Below, one piece after another: positions 1,689 to 61,855 of a stretch of DNA of 64,000 nt. The stretch lies in the IMG/VR virus record IMGVR_UViG_3300007276_000035, positions 1 through 64,000 of that record; one strand, written 5' to 3'. Source of the DNA: a virus. The position numbers and the translations under genes were made by a program. Below the pieces are notes generated by a model, which saw only the letters and a list, made by a program, of their open reading frames with translations, was not told the DNA's origin and made no database searches. The stretch's first letter is position 1. Each line of letters starts with the position of its first letter.

Positions 1689-3368
1689 ATGCTTGCATTA
1701 GGCTTCGGATTTTTTGAGCTTTGGGAACTTAACCAGAAAGTAAGTTTTGACCCCCTTCAACGACTAATTGTTGTTAACGACGGAGTAACCGACATAGATA
1801 TCAAAATAGATATCTATTCTAACTGGAAAGAATGGATACAATTATCTGACTATACTGGACAAGCGCCGCCAGCAATTAGACCAATTGGTGGTGACCCCAC
1901 AGGCCCTGGACAACGAGCTGGTGAAATTTACTTCTTAATTAATGACTGGAAATTAGTAATTGACTTTAATCAAACTAGAGTCAACGGAGTATTGTTGTCA
2001 GACGATTTTGATACTGCGTACTGGTTCGACCCAGTCGGTATATTAGAAAGGGACGACTTACTACCTTTTTACCCTGCAACAGTTAGTAACCTGGTAACAA
2101 CAATCGAGGTAACAGCAGAACTACAAAAATCACTTGACTATTCCGGCACTATAATAGTTGACACTACTCTAGAATTTTCGGGATCTGTTTTTCCATTCGG
2201 AACAAGAGCAAAACCAGTTAACAATATAAACGATGCAATTATACTAGCGGAAGAATACAACATTAGTGACATACGCTTAATTAGAGGCGATTTGACTATT
2301 GACACTGACGTAAGCTACTATCAAATTACCGCAGACAGCAGTGAACAAAAAGTAACTCTATTGGCAAATTCTACACTAACAGATGCTACGTTTATTAATA
2401 TGTCGTTAGAAGGGGAGGTAAACGGTTACAACATTCACGCAGATCAAGTAAAGTTGATTGATGTAAGTAATATAGCTGGAGACGTTAGATTCACTGGATA
2501 TGCTGGCAATATACTATTAGCTCCAAATGCATCTTTTGTATCTACAAACAGTTACTCTCTAAAGAGTGGTAACGAAACACCGTTTATTGTATTCAACGGA
2601 GACAACGATGTTTCTATACGATCATATTCTGGGGGATTACGAGTTCAAAATTTAACAGGAAATTCGTCCGCTACATTTGAATTTATTGCAGGCAAAATAT
2701 TTTTAGATAATACTGATGTTGGTGGCACAGCAAGTGTTCGAGGAACAGTGTTACTTACTGATAGCAGTGCTGGAACAGTAGTTGATACAACAGCTACCGT
2801 CACAGACCTTACTATACAAGACCTAAGCAATGTTGACTTGAGTAACGCGAACATTATAGTTAATGCGCCTACAGCCGTAGAAATTAGACAAGAGATAGAA
2901 CAAAACAGTACTCAGTTAGCAAATATTAGCACAACAACCGTAGACACTAATATTATTGTACAAGGAATAGATAGTAACTTAATTATAGTAGATAATACTG
3001 TCGATAATATCAACAATACAGTCAGCACGATTGACACCAATGTCAATGATATAGAGACTACCGTTAATAGTATTAGTTCAGAATTATCATTAGTAGCAGG
3101 TGATGTAACTAACATAGATTCGAATATTACTGTACTATCGCAAGAAATAGATAGTATTAATTCAAATATTATTAACATCGAAAATATTATTTCGTCGAGT
3201 GGAGGAGGTTTAACACCTACACAAGCTACTATGTTGTTAGAGATGTATGAGTTACTAGGTCTAGATCCAACCAAGCCACTAGTTGTAACTGAGACTGCAC
3301 GAGACGCAGGCAACATTAGCCAGACTATTGACACCAACAACACTAGAACAATAGTAACAAGAAACTAA
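1689..3368 (+). CDS. virion structural protein with beta-helix-like core and C-terminal heptad coiled coil
   Basis: 559 aa; I/V-x-x-I-D-x-N heptads near the C-terminus. Confidence 0.55.
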   Translation: MLALGFGFFELWELNQKVSFDPLQRLIVVNDGVTDIDIKIDIYSNWKEWIQLSDYTGQAPPAIRPIGGDPTGPGQRAGEIYFLINDWKLVIDFNQTRVNGVLLSDDFDTAYWFDPVGILERDDLLPFYPATVSNLVTTIEVTAELQKSLDYSGTIIVDTTLEFSGSVFPFGTRAKPVNNINDAIILAEEYNISDIRLIRGDLTIDTDVSYYQITADSSEQKVTLLANSTLTDATFINMSLEGEVNGYNIHADQVKLIDVSNIAGDVRFTGYAGNILLAPNASFVSTNSYSLKSGNETPFIVFNGDNDVSIRSYSGGLRVQNLTGNSSATFEFIAGKIFLDNTDVGGTASVRGTVLLTDSSAGTVVDTTATVTDLTIQDLSNVDLSNANIIVNAPTAVEIRQEIEQNSTQLANISTTTVDTNIIVQGIDSNLIIVDNTVDNINNTVSTIDTNVNDIETTVNSISSELSLVAGDVTNIDSNITVLSQEIDSINSNIINIENIISSSGGGLTPTQATMLLEMYELLGLDPTKPLVVTETARDAGNISQTIDTNNTRTIVTRN

Positions 3369-3369
3369 C

Positions 3370-3738
3370 ATGGCGTTTGATCACAAAAATTTTGCGACAC
3401 ACGGACTCTATCCTGGATTAGTCACCACTCGTAGCGTGGCTAACCTAGGCCACTTCAAACTTGAAGTAATAATAGAGAAACTACCACGCGGAGGCCCTGG
3501 TACAGCGGGAGGCGCGGTACGGACACGCGGTCGACCTGAAAAAGATAAATATAAAGTAACAATGCGAGTTATGTATAAGACTCGTGTTTGGGAATATGAA
3601 AGAGTAGTTAGCCATATTGCAGCTAGCGTAACAGCCAAACTAATAGGCAAACCTCTTCCAGAAGACCCAAGTGTAACAGTATATAGTGTTATAGAAAAGG
3701 AAAATGAAGATCCTAACATTGAGGTTTATAAGAAATGA
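3370..3738 (+). CDS. hypothetical protein
   Basis: 122 aa ORF tightly coupled within the operon. Confidence 0.6.
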   Translation: MAFDHKNFATHGLYPGLVTTRSVANLGHFKLEVIIEKLPRGGPGTAGGAVRTRGRPEKDKYKVTMRVMYKTRVWEYERVVSHIAASVTAKLIGKPLPEDPSVTVYSVIEKENEDPNIEVYKK

Positions 3739-32160: not shown

Positions 32161-32417
32161 TGCTAACAGTATATACTAAAAACAATTGCGGATTTTGCGT
32201 AATGCTTAAAAATTTGCTTACAAAGAAAGGCTATGACTTCACTGAAGTTAATATAGAAGAAGACGAAGATGCGTACACATTCGTTATTGAAGAAGGCCAT
32301 AAATCTATGCCACAAATTTACGAGGACGGTTCTGTTTTTGTAGAAGGTGGCTTTGAGGGTATGCGAGCATACTTAGCTGAACAAGAAATTAACAACACAA
32401 ACTTAGGAACACTATAA
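32160..32417 (+). CDS. glutaredoxin/NrdH-like redoxin
   Basis: VYTKNNCGFC, SMPQI, GGF. Confidence 0.9.
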   Translation: MLTVYTKNNCGFCVMLKNLLTKKGYDFTEVNIEEDEDAYTFVIEEGHKSMPQIYEDGSVFVEGGFEGMRAYLAEQEINNTNLGTL

Positions 32418-32752
32418 TGTTTTATCATTTAAATGACTTACTTGGAAAAGTAGTTACAATCAAAATAGGAAACGGACAAGAATTTATAGCAACTCTTAGA
32501 GGGATAGATGATCCTTTATCAGTGCTCACACTTAACAAACCAAAGTCAATAATACTCGGAGGCAACAGTCCGGAGACTCAGCAAGTTTTTATGCTACCTT
32601 ACATGCTTACAGCAGACCAGGATGAGATTTTTATGAGTCTAAGTCAGGTATTAAGTGTAGTAAAAACTTTAGAAGAAACTGCTGAAGAATATAAATTACT
32701 GCTACTTCAGGAAGAGTCTGAAGATGTTGACGTAGAAGTAGTCGATAAATAA
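32417..32752 (+). CDS. Sm/LSm-like fold protein
   Basis: LLGKVVTIKIGNGQEFIATLRGID resembles the Sm1 motif; similar to the protein at 57698. Confidence 0.55.
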   Translation: MFYHLNDLLGKVVTIKIGNGQEFIATLRGIDDPLSVLTLNKPKSIILGGNSPETQQVFMLPYMLTADQDEIFMSLSQVLSVVKTLEETAEEYKLLLLQEESEDVDVEVVDK

Positions 32753-32756
32753 GTAT

Positions 32757-33032
32757 ATGCCAGGAGCAGCAAGAGTAGGAGTTGATATAGTCGGGGGTGG
32801 TACCATAGTTGGGCCAGGCTCTCCAACCGTAAGGGTGGATGGTGTTCCGATGAGTTATATCGGCGATCTTGTTTCTAGTCACGGCAACTCCCCACATACT
32901 AGCCCTACCATTATAACCGGAAGTGCAACAGTTCGAGCAGACGGCCGGCCTGTGTCAGTTGAAGGCATTAGTCAAGCAACTTGTGCTCATAATGTTAACA
33001 CAGGATCAGCTACTACACGCATTGACGGATAG
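32757..33032 (+). CDS. PAAR-domain spike tip protein
   Basis: MPGAARVG, GSPTVRVDG, HGNSPH, GSATVRADG, CAH. Confidence 0.9.
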   Translation: MPGAARVGVDIVGGGTIVGPGSPTVRVDGVPMSYIGDLVSSHGNSPHTSPTIITGSATVRADGRPVSVEGISQATCAHNVNTGSATTRIDG

Positions 33033-33118
33033 AACTTGCCTTAGGACCAATATAAGGCGGTGGGTTTACCAGTTCCCTCGTTGATTGATTCGCTACCATG
33101 ACATGTAAATACTGGCTT
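33033..33118 (+). ncRNA. candidate structured RNA with two arms antisense to 23S rRNA 1921-1937
   Basis: CCTTAGGACC 33039-33048 and TTCGCTACC 33089-33097; hairpin 33058-33080 whose loop CCAGT can pair with ACTGG 33111-33115. Confidence 0.5.
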
Positions 33119-33193
33119 ATTTAAACATATAGTTAATATTCAGCTTTAGCTAGGATAAATACTGATAACGTAGACTTAGTTAGGGAAATAAAA

Positions 33194-33355
33194 ATGTCAA
33201 AAACACCATATGAAATTAGATTAGATCTTGTCAGAGAAGCAAAGGAAATTTTGCAAGCAAAAGCAAAAGGCGCAAGCGAGATGCCTTCGACTGAAGATGT
33301 GATTGCCGAAGCCGAAAAACTTAATAAGTTTGTAAGTAGCAAGCCTGAACGATAA
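33194..33355 (+). CDS. small phage protein (53 aa, absent from ORF track)
   Basis: MSKTPYEIRLDLVREAK...AEKLNKFVS; own late motif 33154, RBS and terminator. Confidence 0.75.
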   Translation: MSKTPYEIRLDLVREAKEILQAKAKGASEMPSTEDVIAEAEKLNKFVSSKPER

Positions 33356-33369
33356 TAAGACGGTAGGAG

Positions 33370-33400
33370 AAAATAGGCACTTTTTTGTGCCTATTTTTTT
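33370..33400 (+). terminator. intrinsic terminator
   Basis: AAAATAGGCAC/GTGCCTATTTT plus T run. Confidence 0.8.
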
Positions 33401-44736: not shown

Positions 44737-45329
44737 AGCAGTATAATCCCTATGACAAATATTCATCATCTGACGGCTTGGTATTAGACACCCTAGTTGT
44801 AGATGATGGGAAATGCGAATTAGTAGAACCAAGCCACCCAGCCCTGCATAAACGCGCATCTTTGGACCCATTCGATGGCACTGATTGGGTAGAACGTGAA
44901 AAAGAAATGCTTGACCTTATGCACGGTAAGTTAGGTGTAGGGTTAGCGTCCCCTCAAATCGGCTCAAGCTATAATATGTTTGTGATGCATCATAGCATCC
45001 TAGGTGATATAGGTGTGTACAATCCAACAGTTTTAGAAACAGAAGGTAAAGACCTGATAGAAGAAGGTTGCTTGTCCTGGCCGTTGCTGTACATACCAAT
45101 ATCTAGACCCGAAAGAATTAAAGTTAGTTATACAAAAAATGATGGCGAGACTATAGTAGAGACATGGATGGACGGGATGGATGCTCGGTGTTTCTTACAC
45201 GAAGTAGATCATTTAAACGGTGTTAACTTTATAGACATCGTAAGTGAATTTAAACTAAAACGTGCAAAAGAAAAGAGAGACAAGTTTTTTAAAAAGATGT
45301 CCAGGTCAGCCAAGAGGGTCAAATCTTAA
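44733..45329 (+). CDS. def: peptide deformylase
   Basis: GVGLASPQIG, EGCLS, HEVDHLNG. Confidence 0.93.
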   Translation: MKQYNPYDKYSSSDGLVLDTLVVDDGKCELVEPSHPALHKRASLDPFDGTDWVEREKEMLDLMHGKLGVGLASPQIGSSYNMFVMHHSILGDIGVYNPTVLETEGKDLIEEGCLSWPLLYIPISRPERIKVSYTKNDGETIVETWMDGMDARCFLHEVDHLNGVNFIDIVSEFKLKRAKEKRDKFFKKMSRSAKRVKS

Positions 45330-61515: not shown

Positions 61516-61855
61516 GTCAAATAACAATCAACCTATCATAACAGGCGCAAGTGTGTTTGTTAGGAACGATGATGTTAATGGGGCACTGCGTAGACTCAAG
61601 AAGATCTTAGAAGCTGATAACAGACAAAAAGATTTAGCAAGACACGAGTTTTTCGAAAAAGACAGCTCAAGAAAGAAACGGGCACGTGACCAAGCCAAGA
61701 AAAGAACTAAGCGTGATAATCAAGCGGGCATAGAAGCAGGCACAGCTAATCGTCCTACTGGTCTAAAATGGATGAAGTCAAAGCGTAAGCGTAGAAAAAT
61801 AATCGATGCCGATTATGCGTTTAATGTAGCAAGGCGCCGAAGCCAAACACGCTAA
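61499..61855 (+). CDS. rpsU: ribosomal protein bS21 homolog with extensions
   Basis: VFVRNDDVNGALRRLKK...RHEFFEKDSSRKKRAR. Confidence 0.8.
   Translation: MKNNYKSNNNQPIITGASVFVRNDDVNGALRRLKKILEADNRQKDLARHEFFEKDSSRKKRARDQAKKRTKRDNQAGIEAGTANRPTGLKWMKSKRKRRKIIDADYAFNVARRRSQTR

What the first reader, a model, noticed from the sequence alone, without database searches (positions are those of the whole stretch)
33033..33118. Intergenic RNA with a bipartite antisense match to 23S rRNA H69-H71, beside an Sm-like gene
Seen: right after the PAAR stop lie CCTTAGGACC (33039-33048) and TTCGCTACC (33089-33097). Between them is a hairpin (33058-33080) whose loop CCAGT can pair with ACTGG (33111-33115), forming a pseudoknot. 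The first arm can alternatively be masked by a GCCTTA/TAAGGC stem. Known: the conserved 23S segment GGUCCUAAGGUAGCGAA (E. coli about 1921-1937) lies at the H69-H71 subunit interface and is also the I-CeuI/group I intron site. The two arms are exact complements of its two halves, share the central GG, and occur in permuted order. Inference: a late-transcribed guide, splint or catalytic RNA that clamps host 23S rRNA to modify, cut, protect or repair it or to block subunit joining, possibly chaperoned by the Sm-like protein at 32417. The genome also encodes bS21 and Def and uses leaderless mRNAs. Caveat: 10- and 9-nt matches are short and could arise by chance in one genome.
Basis: partly seen in the sequence, partly recalled or inferred. 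Interest (0 to 1): 0.9.

Follow-up and report, generated by a model that had tools for sequence, protein, structure and literature searches.

The report
New jumbo-phage RNA mirroring 23S rRNA
The 97 bases after the PAAR gene belong to a previously unnamed, widespread folded RNA of giant environmental phages, and its most conserved loops are exact antisense to a universally conserved stretch of the host's large ribosomal RNA, so it may be a virus-made RNA that grips the ribosome's own RNA.

Summary
On its own it is not significant: two-part 10+9-nt antisense matches to rRNA occur about 14 times per shuffled window. What makes it real is conservation. A second, loop-independent pattern added about 68 more.

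The RNA has three helices (P1-P3) and a pseudoknot between the P2 loop and the 3' tail. All 15 nested pairs and 5 of 6 pseudoknot pairs show compensatory changes. A covariance model built without the window finds only window 33025-33121(+), at 31.8 bits and E 1.6e-6.

The RNA occurs once (rarely twice) per genome in uncultured 300-355-kb phages related to Rak2/GAP32. It is absent from four cultured relatives, essentially absent from cellular genomes, and absent from Rfam 15. This scan flagged the same RNA, uninterpreted, in two other genomes.

Loop L1 (CCUUAGG core) is nearly invariant and pairs with 23S 1920-1930. Loop L3 comes in classes. Three of them are complementary to one or the other strand of helix 70 (1929-1937, 1968-1976, 1971-1978); two are not.

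Best reading, at about 0.4: a small RNA that pairs with unfolded 23S H69-H70. The Sm-like chaperone idea is not supported.

The parts
32757..33032 (+). Upstream PAAR-motif gene (91 aa). Its TAG stop at 33030-33032 overlaps the conserved 5' flank of the RNA. It is context, not part of the RNA fold.
   Evidence: ORF list. Pfam PAAR_motif E 4.5e-12. In about 80% of family members a co-directional ORF stops within about 10 nt of P1.
33025..33121 (+). Full extent of the structured RNA as matched by the family covariance models.
   Evidence: R2, built without the window, gives 31.8 bits, E 1.6e-6, and is the only hit in 64 kb. R1 gives 46.2 bits. It is the single copy in the 101,655-bp record.
33039..33048 (+). 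Loop L1, CCUUAGGACC. It is the most conserved element of the family and the exact complement of E. coli 23S 1921-1930.
   Evidence: The CCUUAGG core is nearly invariant in the loop-independent sample.
33038..33058 (+). Local stem GCCUUA/UAAGGC. It sequesters the 5' half of L1 against an internal strand that resembles the sense 23S sequence UAAGG.
   Evidence: RNAfold MFE and centroid. Type-B relatives have a 7-bp CCUUAGG/CCUAAGG stem followed by GGCGUC.
33062..33077 (+). P2 hairpin: GGG/CCC stem with the 10-nt loop UUUACCAGUU.
   Evidence: CM alignment. The P2 pairs of the family are 99.6% paired with G-C to C-G swaps.
33069..33073 (+). Pseudoknot 5' strand, CCAGU, inside the P2 loop.
   Evidence: Family pseudoknot: 87.6% of cells paired against 30-43% when slid, and 5 of 6 pairs compensatory. 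Type-B relatives carry other, mutually complementary pseudoknot strands.
33078..33106 (+). P3 hairpin. It is weak in this copy (about 5-6 of 7 pairs) and presents loop L3.
   Evidence: CM alignment. Family P3 pairs covary strongly.
33088..33097 (+). Loop L3, class a: AUUCGCUACC. TTCGCTACC at 33089-33097 is the exact complement of 23S 1929-1937 and abuts the L1 target.
   Evidence: The loop-closing pair covaries G-C to A-U between classes a and b.
33111..33115 (+). Pseudoknot 3' strand, ACUGG. It overlaps a late-promoter-like GTAAATACT.
33155..33165 (+). Late-promoter-like GATAAATACTG ahead of the 53-aa ORF at 33194-33355. It marks the start of the next transcription unit and is not part of the RNA.
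   Evidence: NTAAATA lies within 45 nt downstream of 35% of family members, against a 2.2% background.

Best explanation
Shown: window 33025-33121(+) is a divergent member of an unnamed, phage-restricted structured RNA family of about 85-125 nt.
- P1 carries loop L1 (CCUUAGGACC), with or without an inserted hairpin.
- P2 is a hairpin whose loop forms an H-type pseudoknot with the 3' tail.
- P3 is a hairpin that presents a second conserved loop, L3.
- The RNA is present once per genome in uncultured 300-355-kb Rak2/GAP32-related myoviruses. It usually sits directly after a co-directional ORF and directly before the next promoter.

Inferred mechanism: it is made as the 3' end of the upstream late transcript, or from its own late promoter in about 11% of members, and acts as a small RNA.
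- L1 pairs with 23S 1920-1930, which is the 3' strand of helix 69 plus the H69-H70 linker.
- L3 pairs with the abutting 5' strand of helix 70 (1929/30-1937). In other classes it pairs with the 3' strand of helix 70 (1968-1978).
- These bases are paired or buried in mature 50S subunits. The target would therefore be nascent or late-assembly 23S domain IV, which the RNA would hold open, blocking or steering H69/H70 formation and so subunit joining.
- In the window's subtype an internal 23S-like strand (UAAGGC) masks half of L1, which suggests a closed and an open state.

Confidence that this is a real conserved structured RNA is about 0.97. Confidence in the 23S-pairing mechanism is about 0.4.
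For: Family and structure:
Of those, 119 of 120 share one fold.
- A pattern that uses only the P2 loop and the pseudoknot tail recovered about 68 further members, still with the CCUUAGG core.
- All 15 nested pairs show compensatory changes: covariation 0.60 against 0.19 shuffled and at most 0.10 slid.
- The pseudoknot covaries.
- G-U outnumbers A-C 180 to 50, which fixes the strand.
- The model without the window scores the window at 31.8 bits as its only hit.

Distribution:
- One copy in the window's own record and in G001, G003, G004 and G005; two in G002.
- In 596 Gb of cellular genomes there is only one true member.

23S link:
- L1 plus the following G is complementary to 1920-1930. L3a is complementary to 1929-1937, exactly abutting.
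- My estimate for a 10-mer plus an adjacent 8-mer on any stable RNA is about 4e-6.
- L3 variants extend along the 23S sequence. UUCGCUACCU(U) reaches 1927/28. GGAAUUCGCUAC matches 1930-1945 with one bulge. UUACGCCA matches 1971-78. ACGCCAUUC, in plain hairpin loops, matches 1968-76.
- No contiguous target exists in five phage genomes.
- The stems vary freely while L1 stays fixed across very divergent phages, as expected for a universally conserved host target. From established knowledge, this stretch is the I-CeuI site conserved in bacterial 23S genes.

Circumstantial: the window encodes bS21 and Def. bS21 is in 3 of 5 other RNA-positive genomes and 0 of 4 cultured RNA-negative relatives.
Against: - No transcript, binding or phenotype data exist, and sequencing runs could not be queried.
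- In the loop-independent sample only about half of members carry a 23S-complementary L3. Classes GGGAGUCGUGCCCC and AUAGGCCGGGAAUCC have no significant 23S match.
- About a third of L1 variants break pairing at positions 8-10 or 3 (GGACG, GGAAC, CCCUAGG).
- Part of L1 pairs intramolecularly in several classes and in the window. Generic folding gives L1 no higher accessibility (0.48) than the RNA average (0.46).
- Conserved 8-mers match rRNA by chance in the reversed and complemented controls too. The shorter L3 matches are therefore weak singly, and the class analysis is post hoc.
- The target is base-paired or buried in mature ribosomes.
- The arm order is permuted relative to a simple antisense RNA.
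- G002 has the RNA but no bS21.
Confidence: 0.4

Rival explanations
1. The RNA is a self-contained structured RNA whose conserved loops are recognised by a phage or host protein, or make tertiary contacts with each other. The complementarity to 23S is then incidental, or a relic of an ancestral capture of antisense rDNA.
For: - L3 falls into several unrelated classes while the scaffold is kept.
- L1 is partly paired internally in several classes, and predicted L1 accessibility is average.
- A single copy per genome fits a dedicated RNA gene with a dedicated partner.
Against: - No conserved neighbouring protein exists. Upstream genes are heterogeneous, and the commonest downstream gene, a DsbA-like phrog_639 protein, is present in only 72 of 180 loci.
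- The exact abutment of L1 and L3a on one 18-nt universal rRNA stretch needs an ad hoc explanation, as do the L3 variants that follow the 23S sequence on either strand of H70.
Confidence: 0.3
2. The RNA is a cis-acting 3'-UTR element of the upstream transcript. It could be a 3'-end protective structure, a factor-dependent terminator, or a ribosome-engaging 3' element that marks the end of a transcription unit.
For: - The upstream ORF is co-directional in 170 of 176 loci. Its stop lies within about 10 nt of P1 in about 80%.
- Promoter-like motifs follow immediately: late type in 35% and sigma70 type in 18%, against a 2.2% background.
- In type C the P3 hairpin is followed by a U-run like an intrinsic terminator.
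Against: - There are only one or two copies in genomes of 300-355 kb with hundreds of transcription-unit ends.
- The upstream genes are unrelated to each other.
- About 11% of members have their own late promoter and no upstream ORF coupling.
- There is no U-tract in the window, and no terminator was called at the site.
- Sequence-invariant loops are not needed for a stability element.
Confidence: 0.12
3. The RNA is a ligand-sensing aptamer (riboswitch-like). L1, L3 and the pseudoknot would form a binding pocket, and the L3 classes would reflect altered specificity.
For: - The fold is compact and pseudoknotted, with invariant unpaired nucleotides and variant classes.
- The type C arrangement is late promoter, then RNA, then P3 terminator with U-run, then SD and ATG of a small basic DUF7230-like protein.
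Against: - In most members a promoter separates the RNA from the downstream gene.
- Downstream genes vary.
- No Rfam riboswitch matches even at E up to 10.
Confidence: 0.08
4. The RNA is a small self-cleaving ribozyme that processes the transcript at this one junction.
For: - The size and the pseudoknotted three-helix architecture with invariant loop nucleotides fit.
- The position is between transcription units in phage DNA, where small ribozymes are common (established knowledge).
Against: - No match to any Rfam ribozyme family.
- There is no recognisable cleavage-site signature.
- It does not explain the rRNA complementarity.
Confidence: 0.05

Closest known systems
Group II intron exon-binding sites (EBS2/EBS1 pairing with IBS2/IBS1)
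   Same: Two separate loops of one folded RNA pair with two abutting segments of a target strand. The loops lie in the same 5'-to-3' order as the target segments. This is exactly the 'permuted' order seen here, with L1 on the 5' half of the target and L3 on the 3' half.
   Different: The RNA is only about 100 nt. It has no domain V/VI, no reverse-transcriptase ORF and no Rfam group II hit. The arms are 8-11 nt rather than about 6 nt. The comparison is recalled from textbook knowledge and describes topology only; it is not a membership claim.
Archaeal and eukaryotic rRNA guide RNAs (box C/D and H/ACA)
   Same: They are small RNAs with antisense elements to highly conserved, functionally central rRNA segments, and they act on rRNA that is not yet folded.
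   Different: There are no conserved C/D or H/ACA boxes. The only snoRNA hit is SNORD44 at E 4.5 and 13.6 bits, against a cut-off of 40. The arm order is opposite to an H/ACA pocket. No guide-RNP proteins are known in bacteria or were seen here.
Ribosome-binding 3' elements of plant RNA viruses (TCV T-shaped structure; BYDV-like BTE with 18S complementarity)
   Same: They are elements of about 100 nt placed right after a stop codon and built from hairpins plus pseudoknots. They engage a ribosomal subunit or pair with rRNA.
   Different: Those belong to eukaryotic RNA viruses, act in cis as translation enhancers and share no sequence or model similarity. This element is a single-copy element of a DNA phage and is followed by a new promoter. 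The resemblance is recalled, not tested.
Unnamed candidate structured RNAs predicted from IMG/VR (Fremin et al. 2023, PMC10690425)
   Same: That catalogue lists 8,495 novel candidates derived from intergenic covariation in the same database. A motif this abundant and this well covarying may well be one of them.
   Different: I could not verify this, because no supplementary files are held. The main text never mentions 23S or jumbo phages. No name, function or rRNA link has been published as far as my searches reach.

Membership tests
The new phage RNA family defined here (models R1 and R2) | Significant score to a covariance model that was built without the candidate | tested here: met
   R2 was built from 92 other members. 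It scores window 33025-33121(+) at 31.8 bits, E 1.6e-6, as the only hit in 64 kb. Type B/d members score 25-47 bits.
The new phage RNA family defined here (models R1 and R2) | L1 loop with CCUUAGG core located 5' of P2 | tested here: met
   CCUUAGGACC lies at 33039-33048. The core is nearly invariant in the loop-independent sample.
The new phage RNA family defined here (models R1 and R2) | P2 hairpin whose loop pairs with the 3' tail (H-type pseudoknot) | tested here: met
   The GGG/CCC stem is at 33062-33077. CCAGU (33069-73) pairs with ACUGG (33111-15). The family pseudoknot covaries.
The new phage RNA family defined here (models R1 and R2) | P3 hairpin presenting the L3 loop | tested here: met
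   The class-a loop AUUCGCUACC is at 33088-33097. The stem is weaker than usual, with several non-standard pairs flagged.
The new phage RNA family defined here (models R1 and R2) | Single copy, directly after a co-directional ORF, in a Rak2/GAP32-related jumbo phage | tested here: met
   There is one copy in the 101,655-bp record, which CheckV rates 28% complete. The PAAR stop is 6 nt before L1. NrdB is 64% identical to Mimasvirus and Eneladusvirus phages.
Any Rfam 15 family (riboswitches, ribozymes, sRNAs, tRNA/tmRNA, snoRNAs, introns) | Score at or above the family's gathering threshold | tested here: not met
   There were no hits in the window and none on the element in 12 member loci. At E up to 10 only noise appears: SNORD44, mir-1976, 6A and Esr41. 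ARAGORN finds no tRNA or tmRNA.
Box C/D or H/ACA rRNA guide RNA | Conserved C/D (RUGAUGA, CUGA) or H/ACA boxes flanking the antisense element | tested here: not met
   No such conserved boxes appear in the 84- to 99-sequence alignments. There is no snoRNA-family hit above noise.
Intrinsic (Rho-independent) terminator | GC-rich hairpin immediately followed by a U-run | tested here: not met
   No terminator was called at 33033-33121. Only 29 of 177 members have T5 at the 3' end. The type C variants do meet this feature.
rRNA-directed antisense RNA (functional class, not a sequence family) | Physical base pairing with 23S rRNA in vitro or in vivo | not testable with these tools
   Only complementarity is shown.

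The most novel reading that the evidence does not exclude
A large clade of giant phages encodes a dedicated small RNA whose two loops clamp the universally conserved H69-H70 segment of host 23S rRNA. Different RNA classes seize either strand of helix 70. This would be the first virus-encoded, rRNA-directed antisense or guide RNA in bacteria. It would give phages a sequence-specific handle on 50S maturation or subunit joining that works in any bacterial host.
Probability: 0.4. Interest if true: 0.92.

Novelty: categorically new. Interest (0 to 1): 0.8.

Why it matters
Phage RNAs that act on the host translation machinery are almost unknown. Giant phages are known to carry ribosomal proteins, tRNAs, tmRNA and deformylase, but no RNA aimed at the ribosome's own RNA.

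This is an abundant RNA class with about 190 contigs already in hand and excellent covariation. It has a concrete hypothesis that can be tested at once, and its target sequence is identical in laboratory bacteria. Binding and 50S-assembly assays can therefore be done without culturing the phage.

If the RNA pairs with H69-H70, it would be a natural blueprint for sequence-specific interference with ribosome assembly, and a new category of phage takeover tool. If it does not, it is still a new, widespread pseudoknotted RNA fold with invariant loops. Its partner, whether protein, ligand or RNA, is worth finding.

Tried and rejected
- **PAAR relatives.** The 16 IMG/VR loci found with the PAAR protein have no intergenic region after the gene, so they were useless for conservation.
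- **GenBank phages.** Three blastn searches, one of the window region and two with family members, found nothing, and a relaxed one only 19-nt noise. Model R2 also finds nothing in GAP32, XbC2, CBB or fHe-Yen9-03.
- **Rfam.** Five scans found no family.
- **Single-sequence folding.** There was no excess stability.
- **Duplex-energy scan.** I scanned whole P3 segments against all rRNA windows. The H69-H71 region ranked top in 25 of 169 against 2.5% expected. GC-rich stems dominate the energies, so I do not lean on this result.
- **Cellular genomes.** Of 53 pattern hits, 33 lie inside 23S rDNA (its antisense strand trivially carries L1), 5 inside Streptococcus macacae 16S rDNA and about 14 are chance. 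Only L238 is a true member.
- **Sm-like chaperone.** No homologue was found in five RNA-positive or four RNA-negative genomes. Its own LSM hit is below Pfam's cut-off.
- **Phage-internal target.** No GGTCCTAAGGTAGCGAA-like site, allowing up to 3 mismatches, exists in five genomes.
- **tRNA-like readings.** An anticodon-loop or T-loop reading of the loops was considered by eye and dropped, because the closing pair and the U54-A58 equivalents do not fit.
- **RNase P external guide, H/ACA pocket or group I internal guide.** These were rejected because their arm order is the opposite of the one seen here.
- **Literature.** Four searches found no description of the motif. The supplements of the one relevant catalogue are not held.

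Full report
**1. The observation**

The sequence is as described.
- The 91-aa PAAR ORF (Pfam E 4.5e-12) ends with TAG at 33030-33032.
- CCTTAGGACC lies at 33039-33048 and TTCGCTACC at 33089-33097.
- A GGG/CCC hairpin spans 33062-33077. Its loop CCAGT (33069-33073) is complementary to ACTGG (33111-33115).
- GCCTTA (33038-43) pairs with TAAGGC (33053-58). This is the only stem in the RNAfold centroid.

I fetched E. coli rrlH. The first arm is the exact complement of 23S 1921-1930, and the second of 1929-1937.

In isolation this is not significant.
- The window contains 479 antisense 10-mer matches to E. coli rRNAs.
- It contains 22 two-part (10+9) pair records, while dinucleotide shuffles give a mean of 14.
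- The interval folds no better than shuffles (z +0.5 and +1.0).

**2. What it is**

Relatives found through the PAAR protein were too distant and lack the spacer.

All but one hit (L075, inside a coding region) share one architecture.
- That architecture starts with a 5' flank, often (U)AAGAAC.
- P1 follows, and its loop holds CCUUAGGACC with or without an inserted hairpin.
- P2 is a GC-rich hairpin, commonly with loop GGCUGCU.
- P3 is a hairpin with loop GAUUCGCUACC.
- A tail AAGUGAGC then pairs back to the P2 loop.

This first sample forced the two loops by construction. I therefore drew a second sample using only the P2 loop and the tail (CGGCTGCTG-N28-48-AAGTGAGC). It added about 68 new members.
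- The CCUUAGG core is almost invariant in them. Exact CCTTAGGACC occurs in 37 of 75 rows. The variants are GGGCC, GGACG, GGAAC, CCCUAGG and GGUCC.
- L3 falls into several classes.

Structure is well supported.
- On the 92-sequence alignment A2, all 15 nested pairs have compensatory changes. 83.6% of cells are paired. The covariation score is 0.60, against 0.19 shuffled and at most 0.10 when partners are slid.
- On the loop-selected alignment A1, the pseudoknot is 87.6% paired, against 30-43% when slid. Five of six pairs change on both sides.
- G-U outnumbers A-C in helices 180 to 50, so the RNA is read from the window's + strand.

A covariance model built from A2, which does not contain the window, finds exactly one hit in the 64-kb window. 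It is 33025-33121(+), at 31.8 bits and E 1.6e-6. The window is a member of the rarer 'type B' flavour. In that flavour the 5' half of L1 pairs with an internal UAAGG(C) strand and the pseudoknot sequence is idiosyncratic. Five other type-B members each have a different, mutually complementary pseudoknot.

**3. Distribution and context**

- There is one copy in the window's 101,655-bp record.
- There is one copy in each of four records of 138-355 kb and two in a complete 352,754-bp genome.
- There is one hit per roughly 10-kb locus in 191 of 198 loci.
- By NrdB, the nearest named phages are the 350-378-kb Rak2/GAP32-like jumbo myoviruses (Mimasvirus, Eneladusvirus; 64% identity). GAP32, XbC2, CBB and fHe-Yen9-03 have no match to the model. 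blastn finds nothing in 50,697 GenBank phage records.
- In 596 Gb of bacterial and archaeal genomes the two-arm pattern gives 53 hits. Of these, 33 are inside 23S rDNA, 5 inside Streptococcus macacae 16S rDNA, about 14 are chance, and only one is a true member, on a 7.6-kb MAG contig.
- Rfam 15 has no family for it, at gathering thresholds or at E up to 10.
- No open-access paper contains either loop sequence.
- A 2023 catalogue of 8,495 unnamed IMG/VR candidate RNAs (PMC10690425) may include it. Its supplements are not held, and its text never mentions 23S.
- This scan had already flagged the same RNA in two other genomes as an unclassified structured RNA.

The local context is as follows.
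- The upstream ORF is co-directional in 170 of 176 loci. Its stop lies within about 10 nt of P1 in about 80%. The upstream proteins are unrelated to one another.
- A DsbA-like 86-aa gene (phrog_639) lies downstream in 72 of 180 loci.
- Late-promoter-like NTAAATA follows the RNA in 35% of members and a sigma70-like promoter in 18%. Eleven percent have NTAAATA just upstream. The background is 2.2%.
- Three 'type C' members have P3 followed by a U-run and then the RBS of a small basic DUF7230-like protein.

Taken together, the RNA sits at the junction of transcription units. It is not tied to any one gene.

**4. The 23S link at family level**

- L1 plus the next base, which is G in most members, is complementary to 1920-1930. 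L3 class a is complementary to 1929-1937. Together they cover one 18-nt stretch without a gap.
- Class b (AAUUCGCUACU) differs from class a by a covarying closing pair, and it matches 1930-1937.
- For a 10-mer plus an adjacent 8-mer on any abundant stable RNA, I estimate a chance probability of about 4e-6.
- Several variants follow the 23S sequence further. UUCGCUACCU(U) reaches 1928 or 1927. GGAAUUCGCUAC (L165, L188) matches 1930-1945 with one bulged A. Class d, UUACGCCA, matches 1971-1978. ACGCCAUUC, in simple hairpin loops (L176, L212, L206), matches 1968-1976.
- From my recollection of the E. coli secondary structure, which I did not test here, 1933-1941 and 1968-1976 are the two strands of helix 70 and 1920-1924 is the 3' strand of helix 69.
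- No contiguous target exists in five of the phage genomes.

**5. Counter-evidence**

- Classes GGGAGUCGUGCCCC (about 20 of 68 in the unbiased sample) and AUAGGCCGGGAAUCC have no significant 23S match.
- Some L1 variants would break pairs.
- L1 is partly paired internally in several classes.
- Generic folding does not predict L1 to be especially accessible: 0.48 against 0.46 overall, while L3 is 0.67.
- Conserved 8-mers match rRNA by chance in the reversed and complemented controls.
- The class analysis is post hoc.
- The arm order is L1 on the 5' half of the target and L3 on the 3' half. This is the order of group II intron EBS2/EBS1, not that of a plain antisense RNA, an H/ACA pocket or an RNase P external guide.

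**6. Mechanism**

I commit, at about 0.4, to a small RNA that pairs with unfolded 23S domain IV (H69 3' strand, linker, and one strand of H70). It would be the 3' end of a late transcript, or self-promoted. By pairing it would interfere with, or steer, late 50S maturation or subunit joining. In the window's subtype an internal 23S-like strand would act as a mask.
- Shown: the RNA family, its fold, its distribution and the complementarity.
- Inferred: transcription, binding and the effect on ribosomes.

The rivals are these:
- a protein-bound or self-contained fold with incidental or relic complementarity (0.3);
- a cis-acting 3'-UTR element (0.12);
- a riboswitch-like aptamer (0.08);
- a self-cleaving ribozyme (0.05).

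The Sm-like chaperone proposal fails. The protein's LSM hit is sub-threshold, and no homologue is detectable in five other RNA-positive genomes. bS21 (61553-61708) and Def (44817-45254) are indeed in the window. bS21 occurs in 3 of 5 other RNA-positive genomes and 0 of 4 cultured RNA-negative relatives. That is weak circumstantial support, and G002 is an exception.

**7. Verdict**

The specific function remains unproven. However, the target sequence is identical in laboratory bacteria, so the central hypothesis can be tested directly.

All covariance-model E-values here come from shortened calibration and are rough.

Noticed in passing
window 33103-33115 and 33155-33166: Two copies of TAAATACTG, a T4-type late-promoter-like motif, lie 52 nt apart. 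The first overlaps the pseudoknot 3' strand of the RNA. The second precedes the 53-aa ORF at 33194-33355, which has no Pfam or PHROG match.
   Followed up: partly
window 33367-33400: A strong intrinsic-terminator-like hairpin (14 pairs plus a T-run) lies right after the 53-aa ORF. This suggests that the RNA, the late promoter and the small ORF end in one short unit.
   Followed up: no
window 32417-32752: The 'Sm-like' protein has only a sub-threshold LSM hit (E 0.0011, 19 bits against a cut-off of 23.4). It matches PHROGs 527 and 431, both of unknown function. No homologue was found in nine related jumbo-phage genomes.
   Followed up: partly
window 61553-61708 and 44817-45254: The phage encodes ribosomal protein bS21 (41.4 bits) and peptide deformylase (102.5 bits). 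bS21 is also present in 3 of 5 other RNA-positive jumbo genomes, but in none of GAP32, XbC2, CBB or fHe-Yen9-03.
   Followed up: partly
L096:2864-3310 (+), with a tRNA at 3364-3435: A member contig carries a permuted tmRNA gene (Rfam tmRNA_permuted, 112.6 bits) next to a tRNA. This is another translation-related RNA in this phage group.
   Followed up: no
L133:7115-7206, L027:6572-6666 (-), L129:712-804: These are 'type C' variants. A late promoter comes first, then L1 in P1, then a GCC..GGCGUC hairpin, then P3 acting as an intrinsic terminator with a U-run. About 10 nt further on lie the RBS and ATG of a conserved 55-58-aa basic protein (weak DUF7230 / phrog_1359). The layout looks like an attenuator or a terminated sRNA.
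   Followed up: partly
G002:C1:76937-77021 (+): The complete 352,754-bp genome holds a second, weaker copy of the RNA (30.6 bits) about 190 kb from the main copy at 266270-266369.
   Followed up: no
L139, L143, L148, L171, L187, L189, L191, L195 (class c members): The P3 loop GGGAGUCGUGCCCC class often has CUA directly 5' of L1. That extends the contiguous 23S complementarity to 1921-1933. The same CUA is also the 5' strand of a longer P1 (ACACUA/UAGUGU), so its meaning is ambiguous.
   Followed up: partly
L239, L254, L257, L261, L266 (Streptococcus macacae): The antisense strand of this species' 16S rDNA carries CCTTAGGACC and TTCGCTACC 52 nt apart by chance. This shows that the bare pattern is not specific outside phage DNA.
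   Followed up: yes
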